From assembly GCA_016186765.1 (NCBI GenBank), contig JACPLD010000005.1, positions 79,785-121,228 of the forward strand: a DNA stretch of 41,444 bases, in the 5' to 3' direction. The position numbers were made by a program, and so were the translations under genes. The notes below the pieces were generated by a model. It was not told where the DNA came from, did not search any database, and saw only the letters and a program-made list of their open reading frames with translations. Of the stretch, positions 19,159 through 41,444 are shown piece after piece. This DNA comes from Candidatus Kaiserbacteria bacterium (lineage in GTDB: Bacteria; Patescibacteriota; Minisyncoccia; Phycocordibacterales; UBA2100). How positions within the stretch are numbered: the first letter of the stretch is position 1; every line of letters starts with the position of its first letter.

Positions 19159-20385
19159 TCAGACGGCAGTAAGCCGGTGCCCGAGCTTCTTCTTTTTCGT
19201 TTTGAGATAGCGCGAATTTATTGAGTTTGGTTTCACCTCGAGAGGAATGCTCTCGAGGATCGAGATTCCATGCCGTACGAGCTCGCGCTCCTTTTTTGGA
19301 TTGTTCGTAAGAAGTCGCACGGAGGAGATCCCTAGATCCTCAAGAATATGGGCTGCGGCCTCATAGGTGCGCGCATCGGCGAGGAATCCGAGCGCGCGGT
19401 TCGCCTCCACCGTGTCGAGTCCCTCATCCTGTAGCGCGTATGCCTTTATCTTGTTGGCAAACCCGATCCCCCTTCCCTCCTGGCTTAAATAGACGATGGC
19501 CCCCGAGCCGTTTTTCTTTATCCGGCGCATGCTCTCTTCGAGCTGCTCACCGCAGTCGCATCGGAGAGAAAGGAGCGTGTCTCCCGTGATGCACTGCGAG
19601 TGAACGCGCACGAGCGCTCCACTCCGGGGTTTGCCAAGAACGAGAGCAGCGTGTTCTCGATCGTCTGAAATAGATCGGTAGACAACGATATCGAATATTC
19701 CGTACTTCGTCGGCAGCCCCGCTCTCGCGAGGCGAACCACATCGGGCTGATGCGGAAGCGGGGAGAGCGGGTGTGTGTGCAGATACCGGACGAGGTCGCG
19801 TATTGTGATGATCCGTATGTTGAGTTTTCGCGCGAGCCGCACTAGTTCATTGCGCTTCGCCATGCGCCCACTTTTCCCAACGATCTCACAGAGAACGCCA
19901 GCAGGCGCATGGCCCCCAAGCCGTGCGAGATCTGCCGCTGCCTCCGTGTGCCCCGCTCGCTCGAGCAGACCTCCATCTCGCGCAACGAGTCCGAAGACGT
20001 GTCCCGGCCGCACCAAATCTTCTGCTTTCGAGCGAGGATTGGTGAGAACGCGAATCGTTCTCTCGCGATCGTGTGCAGAGACACCTGTCGTGATACCACG
20101 CCTGGCATTAACCGATACGGTGAAATTCACGCTCGTCTTCTCGGTGTTCTCGCTCTTCGGGACCATAAGCGAGAGATCGAGCCGCGCGGCCTGCGCGCGT
20201 GTGATCGCTGTGCACACGATTCCCCCGCCCTCTCTGATCATCGTGGTGATCGCTTTTGGCGTCGCGGCATCGGCAGGAATGTAGAGGTCGGCTTCGTTCT
20301 CGCGACCCGGATCGTCGATGATGAGCATCTTTCCTCTCCGAACGTCGGCGATCGCTTCTTCAACGGTACTGAATGTTTTCCTCAT
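19159..20385 (-). CDS. ribBA: Bifunctional DHBP synthase / GTP cyclohydrolase II
   Basis: DDPGRENEAD, RPGHVF, RAGHTE; RVHSQCITGD...RCDC, QEGRGIG, LLTNNP. Confidence 0.96.
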   Translation of the reverse strand: MRKTFSTVEEAIADVRRGKMLIIDDPGRENEADLYIPADAATPKAITTMIREGGGIVCTAITRAQAARLDLSLMVPKSENTEKTSVNFTVSVNARRGITTGVSAHDRERTIRVLTNPRSKAEDLVRPGHVFGLVARDGGLLERAGHTEAAADLARLGGHAPAGVLCEIVGKSGRMAKRNELVRLARKLNIRIITIRDLVRYLHTHPLSPLPHQPDVVRLARAGLPTKYGIFDIVVYRSISDDREHAALVLGKPRSGALVRVHSQCITGDTLLSLRCDCGEQLEESMRRIKKNGSGAIVYLSQEGRGIGFANKIKAYALQDEGLDTVEANRALGFLADARTYEAAAHILEDLGISSVRLLTNNPKKERELVRHGISILESIPLEVKPNSINSRYLKTKKKKLGHRLTAV

Positions 20386-20825
20386 AGTTCCGACATGAGC
20401 TCGATCATCGAAAGCGCCGATTCTGCCGCCTCGATGCCCTTGTTCTCCTTTTTTCTCGTCGCGCGCTCGAGCGCGTCCTTTAGTCGATAGACCGCGAGCA
20501 CTTCAAAAATGACGGGGATCTCGTACTCGAGGGAGACATCCATGCACCCACGTGCACACTCATTGGCAATTTGTTCAAAGTGATAGGTTTTTCCTTTCAC
20601 GATGGCACCGAATGCTATCAAGGCGTCGTATCTGCGCTTCTTTGCCAACTTCTTCGCGACAAGCGGGATCTCCAGAGAGCCGGGCACCCTGAACACATCG
20701 ATGTTTCCGACCTTCACGCCACGGCGCTTCAGCGCCGCAATGCATCGCTTTTCAAGCTCGCTCGTGACATCTTCGCGAAACGAGCTCCCGATGATGCCGA
20801 TATGTATGTCTTTGATTCTTTTCAT
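20382..20825 (-). CDS. ribH: 6,7-dimethyl-8-ribityllumazine synthase
   Basis: VPGSLEIP, GAIVKGKTYHFE, NKGIEAA. Confidence 0.95.
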   Translation of the reverse strand: MKRIKDIHIGIIGSSFREDVTSELEKRCIAALKRRGVKVGNIDVFRVPGSLEIPLVAKKLAKKRRYDALIAFGAIVKGKTYHFEQIANECARGCMDVSLEYEIPVIFEVLAVYRLKDALERATRKKENKGIEAAESALSMIELMSEL

Positions 20826-21403
20826 GCTCTTCTTGTGAGTTTCTCGATGTACTTCGCAAGTACGTCAACTTCGATATTCGCTTTGTCGCCAACTTTCACA
20901 GTGCGAAACGAGGTGCTCTCCCACGTATGCGGAATGATGCCGACGGTTACATACTTCCTTCCCGCCTTTACGACGGTAAGCGCGACGCCATTGACCGCGA
21001 TCGATCCCTTCTCGACCACATACTTCGAAAGCGTGCGAGGGATAGAAAATTTCAGCATGCGGCTGTTTCCCTTTCGCACGACGCTCACAAGTTTTCCAAC
21101 TCCATCTATATGACCCTGAACGATGTGGCCGGAAAGAAATGATATAGGCGTAGCAGGAAGCTCGAGGTTGACATAAGCGCCTCGCGGGAGATCGGGAAGT
21201 GTTGTTCGATGTGCTGTCTCGGGCATGATATCCGCCGAAAAAGAGCTCCCGTTTTTTGCGACGACCGTGAGACATGCGCCGTCAATCCCGATACTGTCCC
21301 CACGCTTGAGCCGTCGCAGAAACCTTTTGTTTGTGCTGATCGAAATCCCCGATCGTGTGCGGGTCGCAACAGTCCCCATTTCCGTGATAATGCCAGTAAA
21401 CAT
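20822..21403 (-). CDS. ribE: Riboflavin synthase alpha chain (RibE/RibC)
   Basis: MFTGII start, GDSIGIDGACLTV, GHIVQGHIDG, KGSIAVNGVALTV, NIEVD. Confidence 0.96.
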   Translation of the reverse strand: MFTGIITEMGTVATRTRSGISISTNKRFLRRLKRGDSIGIDGACLTVVAKNGSSFSADIMPETAHRTTLPDLPRGAYVNLELPATPISFLSGHIVQGHIDGVGKLVSVVRKGNSRMLKFSIPRTLSKYVVEKGSIAVNGVALTVVKAGRKYVTVGIIPHTWESTSFRTVKVGDKANIEVDVLAKYIEKLTRRA

Positions 21404-21425
21404 AAAACCCCGTTCGTTCGGGGTT
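21398..21425 (-). terminator. Riboswitch terminator hairpin overlapping the ribE start
   Basis: AACCCCG-AACGAA-CGGGGTT then TTATGTTT. Confidence 0.7.
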
Positions 21426-21457
21426 GCATCCATTCACCCAAAAAAAATGGGCGGACT

Positions 21458-21651
21458 TTCCTTCTTTCCCTACTACGCTCGCCTGCGGCGAGCTTCGAAG
21501 GGTCCTGCATAGCTTTATGCGACGCAGGACATCCCGACTATACGGTCGGTCGCGGGATTGAACCGCAGTCGTGTCCCGACATATGCCAGGACTCGCGGAC
21601 TCGCCTTGCGGCTTTACCGCCGATTGGGACTCACACCCAACCCCGAAGGAA
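21458..21651 (-). ncRNA. FMN (RFN) riboswitch with an internal insertion
   Basis: CTTCGGGG-TTGGGTGTGAGTCCCAA-TCGGCGGT...GTCCGCGA...GCGGTTCAATCCCGC-GACCGAC-CGTATAGTCG-GGATG; P1 TTCCTTC/GAAGGAA; upstream of rib operon. Confidence 0.9.
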
Positions 21652-21680
21652 CAGGGGAAGTGTACCACACTTTATTCGTG

Positions 21681-22542: not shown

Positions 22543-22664
22543 CCCGCGATTCTACCATTTTGCTCAATCCTGCCTGATGCTACGAACTACCCATCACAAA
22601 AGAGGAGCCACCAGGTAACTCTGGCGGCTCTTCGCGAGTGGTCCGGACCACAAGGTTCCGGGAT

Positions 22665-22865
22665 TCAGTAGAGGTGCGCGCTGGCGCCGTTGCGCTTGCG
22701 TATTTGCTCCGAGGCAGGGAGTGTCGCGAGCATGCCCTCGACCTTTCTAGGTGAGAGGGTCCCCTTGTCGAAGCAGTGCTGCAAGATGGACTTTACGTCG
22801 ATGACAAGGAAGCTGTCATCAGACCATGGAACGAGCTGTTCCAGTAATTCGGTCGACATCATCAT
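22665..22865 (-). CDS. Small hypothetical protein
   Basis: 66-aa ORF with SD-like AGGAGAG upstream and a hairpin near 22605-22630 downstream. Confidence 0.45.
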   Translation of the reverse strand: MMMSTELLEQLVPWSDDSFLVIDVKSILQHCFDKGTLSPRKVEGMLATLPASEQIRKRNGASAHLY

Positions 22866-23104
22866 AGGTCACTCTCCTATATCTGCCTTCACGATCAGAG
22901 GCGATGCTCATCAGACCTCGACAAGCACTGCCGACTGACCGCGAGGCTATCTCGTGCACTCCGCTACACCCACGGGCACTTTACATCTTGCGGGGCCGTG
23001 GTCAAGAAAGAGCTGTGCATACGTGGTGCCTGCCTTCAGAATGCAGAACCGTATACAAAACGGTGTCCAGCTTTGACGTTTGCGCGCTCGACCGGACGAG
23101 AACC

Positions 23105-23234
23105 TCTGGGAAACCCACGGTTTTCCCATTCCTTCCTCCACGAGAAAACAAATGTTTTCCCGACCCCCCCCTTCCCGTTCAAATCCCGACAGTCACAAAC
23201 GCAAAATCAGATACCGATTCGGTATCTGATTTTG
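23105..23234 (-). other. Structured 3' trailer of tRNA-Asp
   Basis: 15-bp perfect stem 23202-23216/23220-23234; antisense T-arm 23177-23188; stems GGGAAAAC/GTTTTCTC and TGGGAAA/TTTCCCA. Confidence 0.6.
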
Positions 23235-23238
23235 ACGT

Positions 23239-23316
23239 TGGCGGGAGCGACGGGATTTGAACCCGCAACCCCTTCCGTGACAAGGAAGTGCTCTATCCAG
23301 GTTGAGCTACGCCCCC
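23239..23316 (-). tRNA. tRNA-Asp(GTC), CCA encoded
   Basis: GGGGGCG...CGCTCCC-G-CCA; CTTCC-TTGTCAC-GGAAG; TTCAAAT. Confidence 0.95.
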
Positions 23317-23367
23317 AACCGAAGCAGAATATATCAAAACGTTGCTTGATGCTATACTCCGGAACAA

Positions 23368-23441
23368 GTCGGGGTAGCTCAGTTGGTTAGAGCGAGCGTT
23401 TCATAAGCGCTAGGTCGTGGGATCGTAGCCCACCCCCGACA
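23368..23441 (+). tRNA. tRNA(CAT), probably elongator Met (Ile2 not excluded)
   Basis: GTCGGGG/CCCCGAC-A; AGCGT-TTCATAA-GCGCT; atypical T-loop ATCGTAG. Confidence 0.85.
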
Positions 23442-23462
23442 CCGGCAGGCTATAATTCATGT

Positions 23463-23651
23463 ATGTCCGCACGATTCTGGGGAACAATTCTTGCCTTCAA
23501 CTCCGTTCTGTGGTTCGTCGCACTCGGCTTCCTTGCCTACGGCTTCGGCATGCTCATCACCTCACTCGATTGGCGGCTCTTCCTCCTCGCGCTTGCAACC
23601 TTCGTCGCCGTCTCACTCACAGAAATTGTGTTGACAGCTCTCGCGCACTAA
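23463..23651 (+). CDS. Small two-TM membrane protein
   Basis: 62 aa, almost fully hydrophobic; TATAAT just upstream. Confidence 0.65.
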   Translation: MSARFWGTILAFNSVLWFVALGFLAYGFGMLITSLDWRLFLLALATFVAVSLTEIVLTALAH

Positions 23652-23689
23652 AAATTGCGACGAATTCTCCCTTGTAGTACAGTACCCGT

Positions 23690-23761
<72 letters not shown>

Positions 23762-23769
23762 CACGAAAT

Positions 23770-23798
23770 GCAAAATTCCGCGAGAGCGGAATTTTTGC
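23770..23798. terminator. Bidirectional terminator
   Basis: GCAAAATTCCGC-GAGA-GCGGAATTTTTGC. Confidence 0.75.
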
Positions 23799-23824
23799 GT
23801 TGAGTGTGCGGGAACAACAAGAAA

Positions 23825-41231: not shown

Positions 41232-41320
41232 GGAGAGGTGGCTGAGTGGACGAAAGCGGCACGGTGCTAACGTGTTAGGCGGGTAAAACTGTCTCGAGGG
41301 TTCGAATCCCTCCCTCTCCG
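41232..41320 (+). tRNA. tRNA-Ser(GCT)
   Basis: GGAGAGG/CCTCTCC-G; GCT anticodon; long variable arm; TTCGAAT. Confidence 0.93.
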
Positions 41321-41322
41321 CA

Positions 41323-41399
41323 TATGCAAAGCGGCTGGCTTTTGCCAGGCCGTTTTGCATACTGATGGAGCAAGCGAGAGCTTGCGAAGGGATTCGAAC
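41323..41399 (+). other. Structured 3' trailer of tRNA-Ser
   Basis: Hairpin 41323-41361, hairpin GCAAGC-GAGA-GCTTGC 41370-41385, antisense T-arm AGGGATTCGAAC 41388-41399. Confidence 0.6.
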
Positions 41400-41444
41400 A
41401 GCGGAGCGATGCCGAGCGAGCACGCGAGGCCGCGAGCTGGTGCC

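What the first reader, a model, noticed from the sequence alone, without database searches (positions are those of the whole stretch)
23177..23262. tRNA-Asp trailer carries a perfect antisense copy of its own T-arm
Seen: tRNA GTTCAAATCCCG (23262-23251) is complemented by CGGGATTTGAAC at 23188-23177, after a 15-bp hairpin. The precursor could refold so that the trailer unzips the T-arm. The copy is inverted, so it is not an ordinary att direct repeat. Inference: control of tRNA maturation, or the end of a tRNA-targeting miniature element.
Basis: partly seen in the sequence, partly recalled or inferred. Interest (0 to 1): 0.7.

Follow-up and report, generated by a model that had tools for sequence, protein, structure and literature searches.

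The report
Miniature insertion module behind tRNA genes
The antisense copy of the tRNA-Asp T-arm is real and not chance: it is one arm of a small, gene-less insertion module that recurs behind many tRNA genes in Parcubacteria (candidate phyla radiation) and always carries an inverted copy of its own host tRNA's 3' part.

Summary
Observation confirmed. 23177-23188 is the exact reverse complement of tRNA-Asp positions 53-64 (23251-23262), and a 16-nt-arm palindrome lies between them. It is not chance. tRNA-Ser in the same window (41232-41321) has the same feature at 41388-41399. Among 132 non-redundant tRNAs from related Parcubacteria loci, 16 carry a matched antisense T-arm within 150 nt downstream, 0 upstream, against 0.06 expected.

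The 12-mer belongs to a ~160-nt module with this layout: tRNA | terminator-like hairpin | inverted copy of the tRNA 3' part | conserved structured core | displaced direct copy of the tRNA 3' end. Two core families occur in the window: "type A" behind tRNA-Asp and "type B" behind tRNA-Ser. Both recur behind Asp, Met, Thr and Ser tRNAs in many genomes, sometimes in tandem arrays. One 1.1-kb insert between a tRNA and its repeated 3' end also carries protein-coding cargo.

No recombinase gene lies nearby, and there is no Rfam match or literature hit. Best reading: a miniature, ORF-less tRNA-integrating cassette whose inverted arm matches its target. How the arm works (closing stem, folded recombination site or guide) is unresolved.

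The parts
23239..23316 (-). tRNA-Asp (GTC), CCA encoded; host gene of the module
   Evidence: ARAGORN; Rfam RF00005 63.8 bits
23251..23262 (-). T-arm segment G53-G64 (GTTCAAATCCCG on the tRNA strand), partner of the antisense arm
   Evidence: (I2)
23202..23234 (.). Perfect palindrome with an A-tract before and a T-tract after (looks like a bidirectional terminator). Only 4 U follow the G+C part of the stem, and the consensus scan did not flag it
   Evidence: I1; not listed; forms in the MFE structure
23177..23188 (-). Inverted arm: CGGGATTTGAAC on the tRNA strand, exact complement of tRNA positions 53-64 (the finding itself)
   Evidence: recurrent in relatives
23103..23175 (-). 'Type A' conserved core: G-rich lead, hairpin 1 (23141-23162), invariant GGAGGAAGG (23131-23139), hairpin 3 (23107-23128), right end AGAGGTTCT
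   Evidence: nhmmer E=5.9e-16 against copies at other tRNAs; alignment A2; covarying pairs and G.U pairs on this strand only
23061..23104 (-). Displaced, decayed direct copy of the tRNA-Asp 3' end plus about 20 nt of trailer (31/44 identical): the att-type direct repeat
   Evidence: D1; local alignment score 36 against shuffles 17.1 +/- 2.3, 0 of 500 reach it
41232..41321 (+). tRNA-Ser (GCT), second host tRNA in the window; T-arm 12-mer at 41300-41311
41325..41359 (+). Terminator-like hairpin after tRNA-Ser
   Evidence: read directly
41370..41385 (+). Small hairpin ('arm I') just before the inverted arm, as in type B modules elsewhere
   Evidence: compare type B copies
41388..41399 (+). Inverted arm AGGGATTCGAAC, exact complement of tRNA-Ser GTTCGAATCCCT
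41400..41444 (+). Start of a 'type B' core (CGGAGCGATG-hairpin-CCGCGAG...), cut off by the window end
   Evidence: nhmmer hit 41383-41444, E=4.5e-11

Best explanation
The antisense 12-mer is a built-in part of a miniature, ORF-less insertion module lodged at the 3' end of tRNA-Asp. On the tRNA strand the module has this layout: intact tRNA, terminator-like hairpin, inverted copy of the tRNA 3' part (here only the T-arm part, positions 53-64), a ~75-nt conserved structured core ('type A'), then a displaced direct copy of the tRNA from the T-loop to its 3' end.

Shown: this layout recurs behind Asp, initiator-Met, elongator-Met, Thr and Ser tRNAs in many Parcubacteria. The same core families sit at different tRNAs. 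The inverted arm and the direct repeat always match the local tRNA.

Inferred: the module arrived by recombination within the T-loop, Campbell-type. It brought its own copy of the tRNA 3' part plus a terminator, which keeps the tRNA gene intact, and it pushed the original 3' end downstream. Repeated events build tandem arrays. The enzyme acts in trans and is unknown.

Inferred, less certain: the inverted arm exists to base-pair with the tRNA 3' segment. That pairing could be with the module's own copy, which would close the core in a tRNA-top-half-like stem as RNA or folded single-stranded DNA. It could instead be with the target gene. Either would explain why the arm co-varies with the tRNA.
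For: 1. The arm recurs and is specific in direction: 16/132 downstream, 0 upstream, 0.06 expected, with 14 different T-arms each matched. A looser screen gives 30 of 108 tRNAs with an exact antisense match of 9 nt or more downstream and 7 upstream.
2. Most of the same tRNAs have a direct repeat of the tRNA 3' end 120-240 nt downstream. It starts in the T-loop and usually ends at the discriminator. The window's copy is significant.
3. The cores form families. Type A has 10 copies and type B about 20. Of 31 core hits, 25 lie 35-250 nt downstream of a detected tRNA on the same strand, and a 26th (L103) lies 43 nt behind an intron-containing tRNA-Met that ARAGORN missed. Near-identical type A cores sit behind tRNA-Asp and tRNA-Met in one contig (L141).
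4. Type A hairpins covary (4 pairs with double changes), and G.U pairs appear only on the tRNA-sense strand.
5. Tandem arrays: L155, L117, L016, L119, L159, L151.
6. Larger insert with cargo: L008 has a HIT-family-like ORF (judged by eye) and a further ORF (an undetermined gene fragment) between the tRNA and its repeated 3' end. There the inverted arm plus a short core sit at the far end, next to the repeat.
7. The arm is a true Watson-Crick complement of the tRNA 3' strand. It has A opposite T69 where the tRNA's own 5' strand has G, in both L117 units.
8. Orthologous tRNA-Asp sites hold type A, type B, other cores or nothing, which indicates turnover.
9. Single-sequence folds of type B units pair the two halves of the arm with the displaced tRNA end.
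Against: No recombinase, transposase or reverse transcriptase lies in or near any module. No HxxR[HK]-type tyrosine-recombinase ORF was found in about 100 loci, and Pfam gave none for the 30 of 47 window ORFs that were scanned.

No empty and filled sites were seen in near-identical genomes, and no circular junction, so mobility is inferred and not observed.

The left boundary of the direct repeat varies from position 52 to about 60 among core families, which is looser than a single site-specific enzyme would give.

In type B the arm also complements T54/N55, which the displaced copy lacks. The arm therefore fits the intact tRNA better than the module's own closing partner.

Type A cores also occur inverted, abutting a tRNA 3' end without any arm (L102, L116).

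The window's displaced copy is about 30% diverged while arm and core are intact. This needs either selection or turnover of the proximal cassette.
Confidence: 0.62

Rival explanations
1. Cis-acting trailer. Transcripts that read through the hairpin carry the antisense arm, which pairs with the T-arm and unfolds the pre-tRNA, so maturation or decay of tRNA-Asp is tuned by terminator read-through.
For: The MFE structure of tRNA plus trailer locks positions 53-64 to the arm and the acceptor 3' strand to the trailer: -64.5 kcal/mol, z = -4.7. The hairpin has only four U after its G+C part and was not scored as a terminator, so read-through is plausible. The arm stays perfect where the displaced copy has decayed.
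Against: The cloverleaf folds first during transcription. The arm lies beyond a strong hairpin in most loci. In L008 the arm is about 1 kb from the tRNA. The arm is always accompanied by a conserved core and usually a displaced tRNA end, which a simple attenuator does not need. Only a minority of tRNAs, and differing ones in different genomes, carry it.
Confidence: 0.1
2. Guide reading. The arm plus the conserved core is a guide-plus-scaffold nucleic acid (RNA, or folded single-stranded DNA) that recognises the intact T-loop-to-acceptor segment of the target tRNA gene by base pairing. It directs a trans-acting enzyme to insert, maintain or excise the cassette.
For: The arm is a variable, target-matched segment embedded in conserved sequence. 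In type A it sits directly 5' of the core. In type B it is split in two around a conserved hairpin. It complements T54 and N55 (AA for elongator tRNAs, CA for initiator tRNAs). These belong to the intact tRNA and not to the copy displaced by type B modules. It is a Watson-Crick complement, not a copy of the tRNA 5' strand. The same scaffold family carries different arms at different tRNAs.
Against: No effector gene was found. No expression data exist. The displaced tRNA end would sequester the guide in cis. Known guided elements (IS110 bridge RNA, group II introns, OMEGA systems) do not leave a 13-22-nt duplication that ends at the tRNA 3' end.
Confidence: 0.18
3. Domesticated tRNA-top-half mimic. 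Arm, core and displaced tRNA end are transcribed together. The arm pairs with the displaced end to give an acceptor/T-stem-like helix, which lets RNase P, RNase Z or the CCA-adding enzyme cut out and stabilise the core as a small RNA.
For: MFE folds of 13 of 15 type B units close the core with exactly this stem, and the extra hairpin emerges at the acceptor/T junction as in a tRNA. The cores have RNA-type covariation on the sense strand.
Against: The displaced end has decayed in several loci where arm and core are intact: the window, L117, L124, L127. A fixed closing stem would serve as well, so matching the neighbouring tRNA would be unexplained without integration. In the window the stem would be only 9 of 12 pairs, and the MFE does not form it.
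Confidence: 0.07
4. Relic or by-product with no function: a decayed convergent tRNA fragment, outward growth of the terminator palindrome by template switching, or chance.
For: Palindromes next to highly transcribed genes can grow by template switching (general knowledge). In L117 unit 2 the acceptor part, the terminator and the arm form one continuous palindrome.
Against: Chance is excluded. In the window the part next to the hairpin (the acceptor) is not duplicated while the distal T-arm is, which is the wrong order for outward palindrome growth. ARAGORN and Rfam found no tRNA-like fold on the opposite strand. The constant association with conserved cores argues against a by-product.
Confidence: 0.03

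Closest known systems
tRNA-gene integrative elements and their integrase-less derivatives (genomic islands, CIME-type cis-mobilisable elements, tycheposons)
   Same: Insertion in the 3' part of a tRNA gene, which is regenerated. The insert is flanked by a partial tRNA repeat, and successive insertions stack and leave decayed partial tRNAs. The general principle is as described in the tycheposon preprint, 10.1101/2020.12.28.424599. CIME is cited from memory.
   Different: The modules are only about 130-200 nt with no gene at all. No integrase lies anywhere nearby. Each carries an inverted copy of the att/tRNA segment and a conserved structured core. The same core serves several tRNA species.
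Integron gene cassettes with folded attC sites, and the folded single-stranded attP of CTX phage used by XerCD (from memory)
   Same: Small promoterless units stacked in tandem at one anchor site. The site is an imperfect palindrome whose two arms must pair, with a variable structured centre that falls into families. The recombinase is not inside the unit.
   Different: No IntI gene and no RYYYAAC/GTTRRRY boxes (only AAC...GTT-like ends). The anchor is a tRNA T-loop. Most units carry a structured non-coding core instead of an ORF. Whether single-stranded DNA is involved is untested.
E. coli tyrT 178-bp tandem repeats / rtT RNA (from memory)
   Same: Tandem units of about 180 nt downstream of a tRNA gene, each containing the last ~19 nt of the tRNA. 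L016 and L151 show the same picture.
   Different: No inverted copy of the tRNA end is described there. That is one locus in one species, not a family spread over many tRNAs and genomes.
Guide-bearing mobile elements (IS110 bridge RNA, group II intron EBS/IBS, IS200/605 guide sequences; from memory)
   Same: An element-borne segment complementary to the insertion target, embedded in a conserved structured scaffold, that changes with the target.
   Different: Those elements encode their enzyme. They leave no long target duplication that ends at a gene boundary. Their guides are shorter or arranged differently.
Retroviral / LTR-retrotransposon primer-binding site
   Same: A stretch complementary to the T-loop-to-3'-end part of a tRNA.
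   Different: The arm here does not complement CCA. Where it reaches the tRNA end it follows the genomic flank instead. No reverse transcriptase is present.

Membership tests
tRNA-gene integrative element (site-specific, att repeats) | Direct repeat of the tRNA 3' segment flanking the insert, with the tRNA gene left intact | tested here: met
   Window 23061-23104 against 23220-23263: score 36, 0 of 500 shuffles reach it. Exact 11-22-nt repeats in relatives.
tRNA-gene integrative element (site-specific, att repeats) | Integrase or recombinase gene carried by the element | tested here: not met
   Modules are 130-200 nt with no ORF. No HxxR[HK]...Y ORF in about 100 Parcubacteria loci. Pfam found none in the 30 of 47 window ORFs scanned.
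tRNA-gene integrative element (site-specific, att repeats) | Presence/absence at the same site in close relatives, or circular junctions | tested here: inconclusive
   Orthologous tRNA-Asp sites hold type A, type B, other cores or nothing, but no near-identical pair differs. Same-species Logan contigs break at the tRNA cluster.
MITE (non-autonomous DDE transposon) | Terminal inverted repeats at both element ends and a short target duplication of fixed length | tested here: not met
   The arm pairs with the tRNA segment, not with the other element end (only GGTTC/GAACC in type A). The duplication is 13-22 nt or more and ends at the tRNA 3' end.
Integron cassette / attC | R''/R' boxes RYYYAAC...GTTRRRY and an intI gene at the array head | tested here: not met
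   The arms read GTTCRAA...TTYGAAC with GTT outermost. No integrase next to the tRNAs.
Integron cassette / attC | Tandem arrays of small units, each ending in an imperfect palindrome | tested here: met
   L155, L117, L016, L119, L159, L151.
Primer-binding site of a retroelement | Complementarity to the mature tRNA 3' end including CCA | tested here: not met
   In L117 unit 2 and L155 unit 1 the arm continues into the complement of the genomic flank, not into TGG. The window arm covers only positions 53-64.
Any curated RNA family (Rfam 15) | Covariance-model match to the core or to the arm-plus-core | tested here: not met
   Only tRNA and the FMN riboswitch at gathering score. Nothing credible at E up to 1-5 on the window region and on 7 loci with modules.
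Intrinsic-terminator-dependent cis regulation of the tRNA | The arm is part of the tRNA transcript in vivo | not testable with these tools
   Only thermodynamics is available. No expression data.

The most novel reading that the evidence does not exclude
Parcubacteria carry an undescribed cassette system. Gene-less or small-cargo units are stacked at tRNA T-loops. Each unit carries a programmable arm complementary to its target tRNA segment, set in a conserved scaffold. The arm works as a nucleic-acid guide or as half of a folded recombination site for a trans-acting enzyme. This would be functionally between integron attC cassettes and bridge-RNA-type guided recombination.
Probability: 0.2. 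Interest if true: 0.9.

Novelty: new variant of a known kind. Interest (0 to 1): 0.62.

Why it matters
tRNA genes are the classic landing sites for mobile DNA, but the known elements carry their own integrase and only a direct copy of the tRNA end. Here a lineage with tiny genomes holds many gene-less modules of ~150 nt. They regenerate the tRNA, stack in arrays, share conserved structured cores across different tRNAs, and always carry an inverted, target-matched copy of the tRNA 3' part.

If the arm is a pairing partner or guide, this is a compact and naturally reprogrammed targeting device, and the enzyme behind it is still to be found. If it is only structural, these modules still matter in three ways. 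They are a new family of structured non-coding RNA or DNA in candidate-phyla-radiation bacteria. They are a plausible cause of assembly breaks at tRNA clusters. They are a caution for tRNA and genomic-island annotation in metagenome-assembled genomes.

Tried and rejected
1. Chance or simple palindrome: rejected by the enrichment test and by the second case in the window.
2. Decayed tRNA on the opposite strand: ARAGORN and Rfam find none. The 5' T-stem is not present next to the copy.
3. Known RNA family for the cores: no Rfam match.
4. Phage or plasmid origin of the cores: three motif scans of IMG/VR gave only chance hits, with no tRNA context and no HMM support.
5. Extending the window past 41444 and finding empty sites in the same species: the ComF-like product is not on record. 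Contigs carrying the pterin dehydratase, HD and p227 proteins are short and end at or before the tRNA clusters.
6. Near-identical locus pairs that differ by a module: none among the fetched loci.
7. Integrase next to modules: none.
8. Small ORF in type A (GGAGG followed by ATG): the frame is not conserved, and the ATG is absent in copies with the extra hairpin.
9. Primer-binding-site idea: no CCA complement.
10. Selection test comparing arm and displaced copy: 20 against 46 mismatches over shared positions in 25 units. This favours the arm but is confounded by the junction position and by possible cassette turnover, so it is not used as proof.
11. Literature: four searches found nothing describing this layout.

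Full report
**1. The observation**

The + strand reads GTTCAAATCCCG at 23177-23188 and CGGGATTTGAAC at 23251-23262. The repeat finder reports them as a 12-nt, 100% complementary pair 62 nt apart (I2). The second arm lies in tRNA-Asp(GTC), minus strand 23239-23316 (ARAGORN; Rfam 63.8 bits). It covers positions 53-64: the last base of the 5' T-stem, the T-loop and four bases of the 3' T-stem. The match does not extend on either side.

Between the arms is a perfect palindrome, 23202-23217/23219-23234, with an A-run before and a T-run after (I1). The simple terminator scan did not list it, because only four T follow the G+C part of the stem. The only amendment is that the hairpin arms are 16 nt, not 15.

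**2. It is not chance**

A scan of all seven tRNAs in the window found a second case. tRNA-Ser(GCT), + strand 41232-41321, has GTTCGAATCCCT at 41300-41311. Its exact complement lies at 41388-41399, again after a terminator-like hairpin, and again covers positions 53-64. The T-arm sequence differs from that of tRNA-Asp, and the copy differs with it.

The window comes from a Parcubacteria (candidate phyla radiation) bacterium. Its GatA is 74% identical to that of a Candidatus Kaiserbacteria genome, and the gatA - tRNA-Met - tRNA-Met - tRNA-Asp neighbourhood is shared with other Parcubacteria.

I aligned the conserved membrane protein next to gatA (alignment A1) and used it to fetch 80 related metagenome loci.
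- 132 non-redundant tRNAs had at least 100 nt on both sides.
- 16 have the reverse complement of their own positions 53-64 (at most one mismatch) within 150 nt downstream.
- None has it upstream.
- Shuffled flanks give 0.06.
- 0 of 14 tRNAs in unrelated bacteria have it.

The 16 cases have 14 different T-arm sequences. A looser screen (exact antisense match of 9 nt or more within 250 nt) gives 30 of 108 downstream and 7 upstream. The downstream matches start at tRNA position 53-55 and lie 47-84 nt after the tRNA end.

**3. What surrounds the 12-mer**

The same tRNAs usually have a direct repeat of the tRNA 3' end 120-240 nt downstream. It begins inside the T-loop and mostly ends at the discriminator. 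The window has one too. 23061-23104 is 31/44 identical to 23220-23263, that is, the tRNA-Asp 3' end plus about 20 nt of trailer (D1). Its local alignment score is 36 against 17.1 +/- 2.3 for shuffles, and none of 500 shuffles reaches it.

Between the inverted arm and the direct repeat lies a conserved core.
- **Window core (23103-23175, minus strand).** It belongs to a family I call type A, with ten copies in the fetched loci (nhmmer, window E = 5.9e-16). They lie behind tRNA-Asp, initiator-type tRNA-Met and tRNA-Thr.
- **Same core at different tRNAs.** In contig L141, nearly identical type A cores follow both tRNA-Asp and tRNA-Met, each with its own matched arm and repeat.
- **Type A structure.** It has two hairpins with compensatory changes (four pairs changed on both sides), an invariant GGAGGAAGG between them, and G.U pairs only on the tRNA-sense strand.
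- **tRNA-Ser core.** The sequence after the tRNA-Ser arm (41400-41444, cut by the window end) belongs to a second family, type B. It has about 20 copies behind Asp, both Met types and Ser.
- **Split arm in type B.** The inverted copy is often complete, running from the T-loop to the discriminator. It is split in two by a small conserved hairpin placed exactly at the junction between the acceptor part and the T-arm part.
- **Position of the cores.** Of 31 core hits, 25 lie 35-250 nt downstream of a detected tRNA on the same strand. A 26th (L103) lies 43 nt behind an intron-containing tRNA-Met that ARAGORN missed.
- **Other cores.** Other cores exist (L035, L129, L159, L117 unit 1, L008), but the arm and the repeat are constant.
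- **Rfam.** Rfam has no match for any of them.

**4. Features that bear on origin**
- **Tandem arrays.** In L155, L117, L119, L159, L016 and L151 each unit starts with a copy of the tRNA 3' end.
- **Larger versions.** In L008 a 1.1-kb insert lies between tRNA-Met and its repeated 3' end. It holds an ORF that looks like a HIT-family protein (judged by eye, not scanned) and a further ORF (an undetermined gene fragment). There the inverted arm and a short core sit at the far end, next to the repeat and about 1 kb from the tRNA. In L118 a 1.45-kb insert holds an ORF with the HPFxxGNGR motif typical of Fic proteins.
- **Dynamic occupancy.** Orthologous tRNA-Asp sites hold type A (window, L141), type B (L098, L117 unit 2), other cores, or nothing (L001, L007, L010, L092, L095, L097).
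- **No enzyme in sight.** No ORF with a tyrosine-recombinase HxxR[HK]...Y signature occurs in about 100 Parcubacteria loci. The 30 of 47 window ORFs scanned with Pfam are housekeeping genes (a two-component system, ABC/FtsEX transporters, IMPDH, CTP synthase, RF2, a riboflavin-pathway gene, ligase, type IV pilus genes, a ComF-like protein). Reading the translations by eye adds gatCA and two further riboflavin genes.
- **True complement.** In both L117 units the arm has A opposite T69, where the tRNA's own 5' strand has G. It is therefore not a copy of the 5' acceptor strand.
- **No CCA complement.** Where the arm reaches the tRNA end it follows the genomic flank and not CCA. That rules out a primer-binding-site analogy.
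- **Coverage of positions 54-55.** In type B the arm also complements T54 and N55 (AA for elongators, CA for initiators). These belong to the intact tRNA but are absent from the displaced copy, which starts at C56.

**5. How it most likely works**

The layout is what a Campbell-type insertion into the T-loop would leave: intact tRNA, terminator, arm, core, displaced tRNA end. The inserted unit would carry its own copy of the tRNA 3' part and a terminator. The gene stays functional, the old 3' end is pushed downstream and decays, and new arrivals stack in front of old ones. This is the logic of tRNA-integrating islands. The tycheposon preprint describes the same partial-tRNA flanks and the stacking of successive integrations.

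Three things are new here. The units are about 130-200 nt and gene-less. The same cores serve several tRNA species. Every unit carries an inverted, target-matched copy of the att segment.

I take the arm to be a pairing partner of the tRNA 3' segment. In a circular or transcribed form, arm - core - tRNA segment are contiguous and fold into a stem that closes the core. Single-sequence folds of 13 of 15 type B units give exactly that, with the small hairpin emerging where the D and anticodon arms leave a real tRNA.

Whether this fold acts as RNA or as single-stranded DNA cannot be decided from sequence. Whether the arm instead pairs with the target gene, as a guide, cannot be decided either. The core hairpins favour RNA on the sense strand. 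The coverage of positions 54-55 favours pairing with the intact tRNA or its gene.

Mobility itself is inferred. I found no empty/filled pair in near-identical genomes. Contigs of the same species in public read assemblies simply end at the tRNA clusters.

**6.

If transcription reads through the hairpin, the most stable fold of tRNA plus trailer does lock positions 53-64 to the arm and most of the acceptor 3' strand to the trailer: -64.5 kcal/mol, z = -4.7. The idea is physically sound and the weak U-run leaves room for read-through.

It does not explain the conserved core, the displaced tRNA end, the arrays, or the L008 arrangement. The cloverleaf would also form first during transcription. 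I keep it as a minor rival.

**7. Comparison with known systems, and novelty**

The closest known kind is the tRNA-gene integrative element and its integrase-less derivatives. The defining direct repeat is present, and the defining integrase is absent. It resembles integron cassettes and the folded attP of CTX phage in being small, stacked and palindromic, but it lacks their sequence boxes and their integrase. It resembles guide-bearing elements in having a target-matched segment in a conserved scaffold, but no effector is known. The E. coli tyrT 178-bp repeats (from memory) share the tandem units that contain the tRNA end, but not the inverted arm.

Four literature searches and Rfam gave nothing that describes this layout. 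I rate it a new variant of a known kind. There is a one-in-five chance that it is a new pairing-guided cassette system.

**8. Limits**
- The loci were sampled around one gene neighbourhood, so genome-wide frequency is unknown.
- The tRNA-Ser module is cut by the window end.
- The comparison of arm and displaced-copy decay (20 against 46 mismatches over shared positions in 25 units) is confounded by junction position and possible cassette turnover.
- There are no expression or population data.

Noticed in passing
window 21517-21654 (-): FMN riboswitch (Rfam 68.7 bits) upstream of the riboflavin genes. ribBA (19162-20385) is Pfam-confirmed. ribE (20822-21433) and ribH (20382-20825) were named by eye from their translations. 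Riboflavin synthesis is not common in candidate-phyla-radiation genomes.
   Followed up: no
window 22545-23060: About 500 nt without a convincing gene between the displaced tRNA-Asp end and the HD-domain gene. It may hold older, decayed cassette remnants: the displaced copy is followed by a trailer and hairpin resembling those after the tRNA. A CTGATGAG motif at about 22906-22913 (minus strand) has no Rfam hammerhead support.
   Followed up: partly
window 23239-23316: This tRNA-Asp encodes CCA and has an acceptor stem GGGGGCG/CGCTCCC. Relatives have GCGGGYG/CRCTCGC and no encoded CCA. The displaced copy at 23061-23104 looks closer to the relatives' version.
   Followed up: partly
L103 6725-7065: The initiator-type tRNA-Met is interrupted in the anticodon loop by an insert of about 270 nt (group I intron-like position). 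ARAGORN misses the gene. A type A module follows it.
   Followed up: no
L102 4797-4883 and L116 7496-7580: Type A cores in inverted orientation, directly abutting a tRNA 3' end or a displaced tRNA end, without an antisense arm. This is unexplained by the cassette model.
   Followed up: partly
L008 4868-5950; L118 6736-8186: Inserts of 1.1 kb and 1.45 kb lie between a tRNA-Met and a repeat of its 3' end. One holds an ORF that looks like a HIT-family protein, the other an ORF with a Fic-type HPFxxGNGR motif (both judged by eye, not scanned). No recombinase ORF was seen in either.
   Followed up: partly
L016 10976-11300: Tandem ~176-nt units, each beginning with the last ~19 nt of tRNA-Asp. The second unit runs into a masked run of N in the stored record.
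   Followed up: no
L035 8420-9100: ORF just upstream of the tRNA-Met/tRNA-Asp pair with a ...AGVALYLAEGTK... motif that looks like a LAGLIDADG-type homing endonuclease. Not tested.
   Followed up: no
window 40537 and 22731-23800 (ends of L081-L086, L167-L173): All public short-read contigs that carry this species' exact proteins end at the tRNA clusters or at the start of the ComF-like gene. This is consistent with repeats or strain variation there.
   Followed up: partly
window 23690-23762 versus related loci: The initiator-type tRNA-Met next to the p227 gene is on the opposite strand to p227 in some relatives and on the same strand in others. This suggests local inversions in the tRNA cluster.
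   Followed up: no
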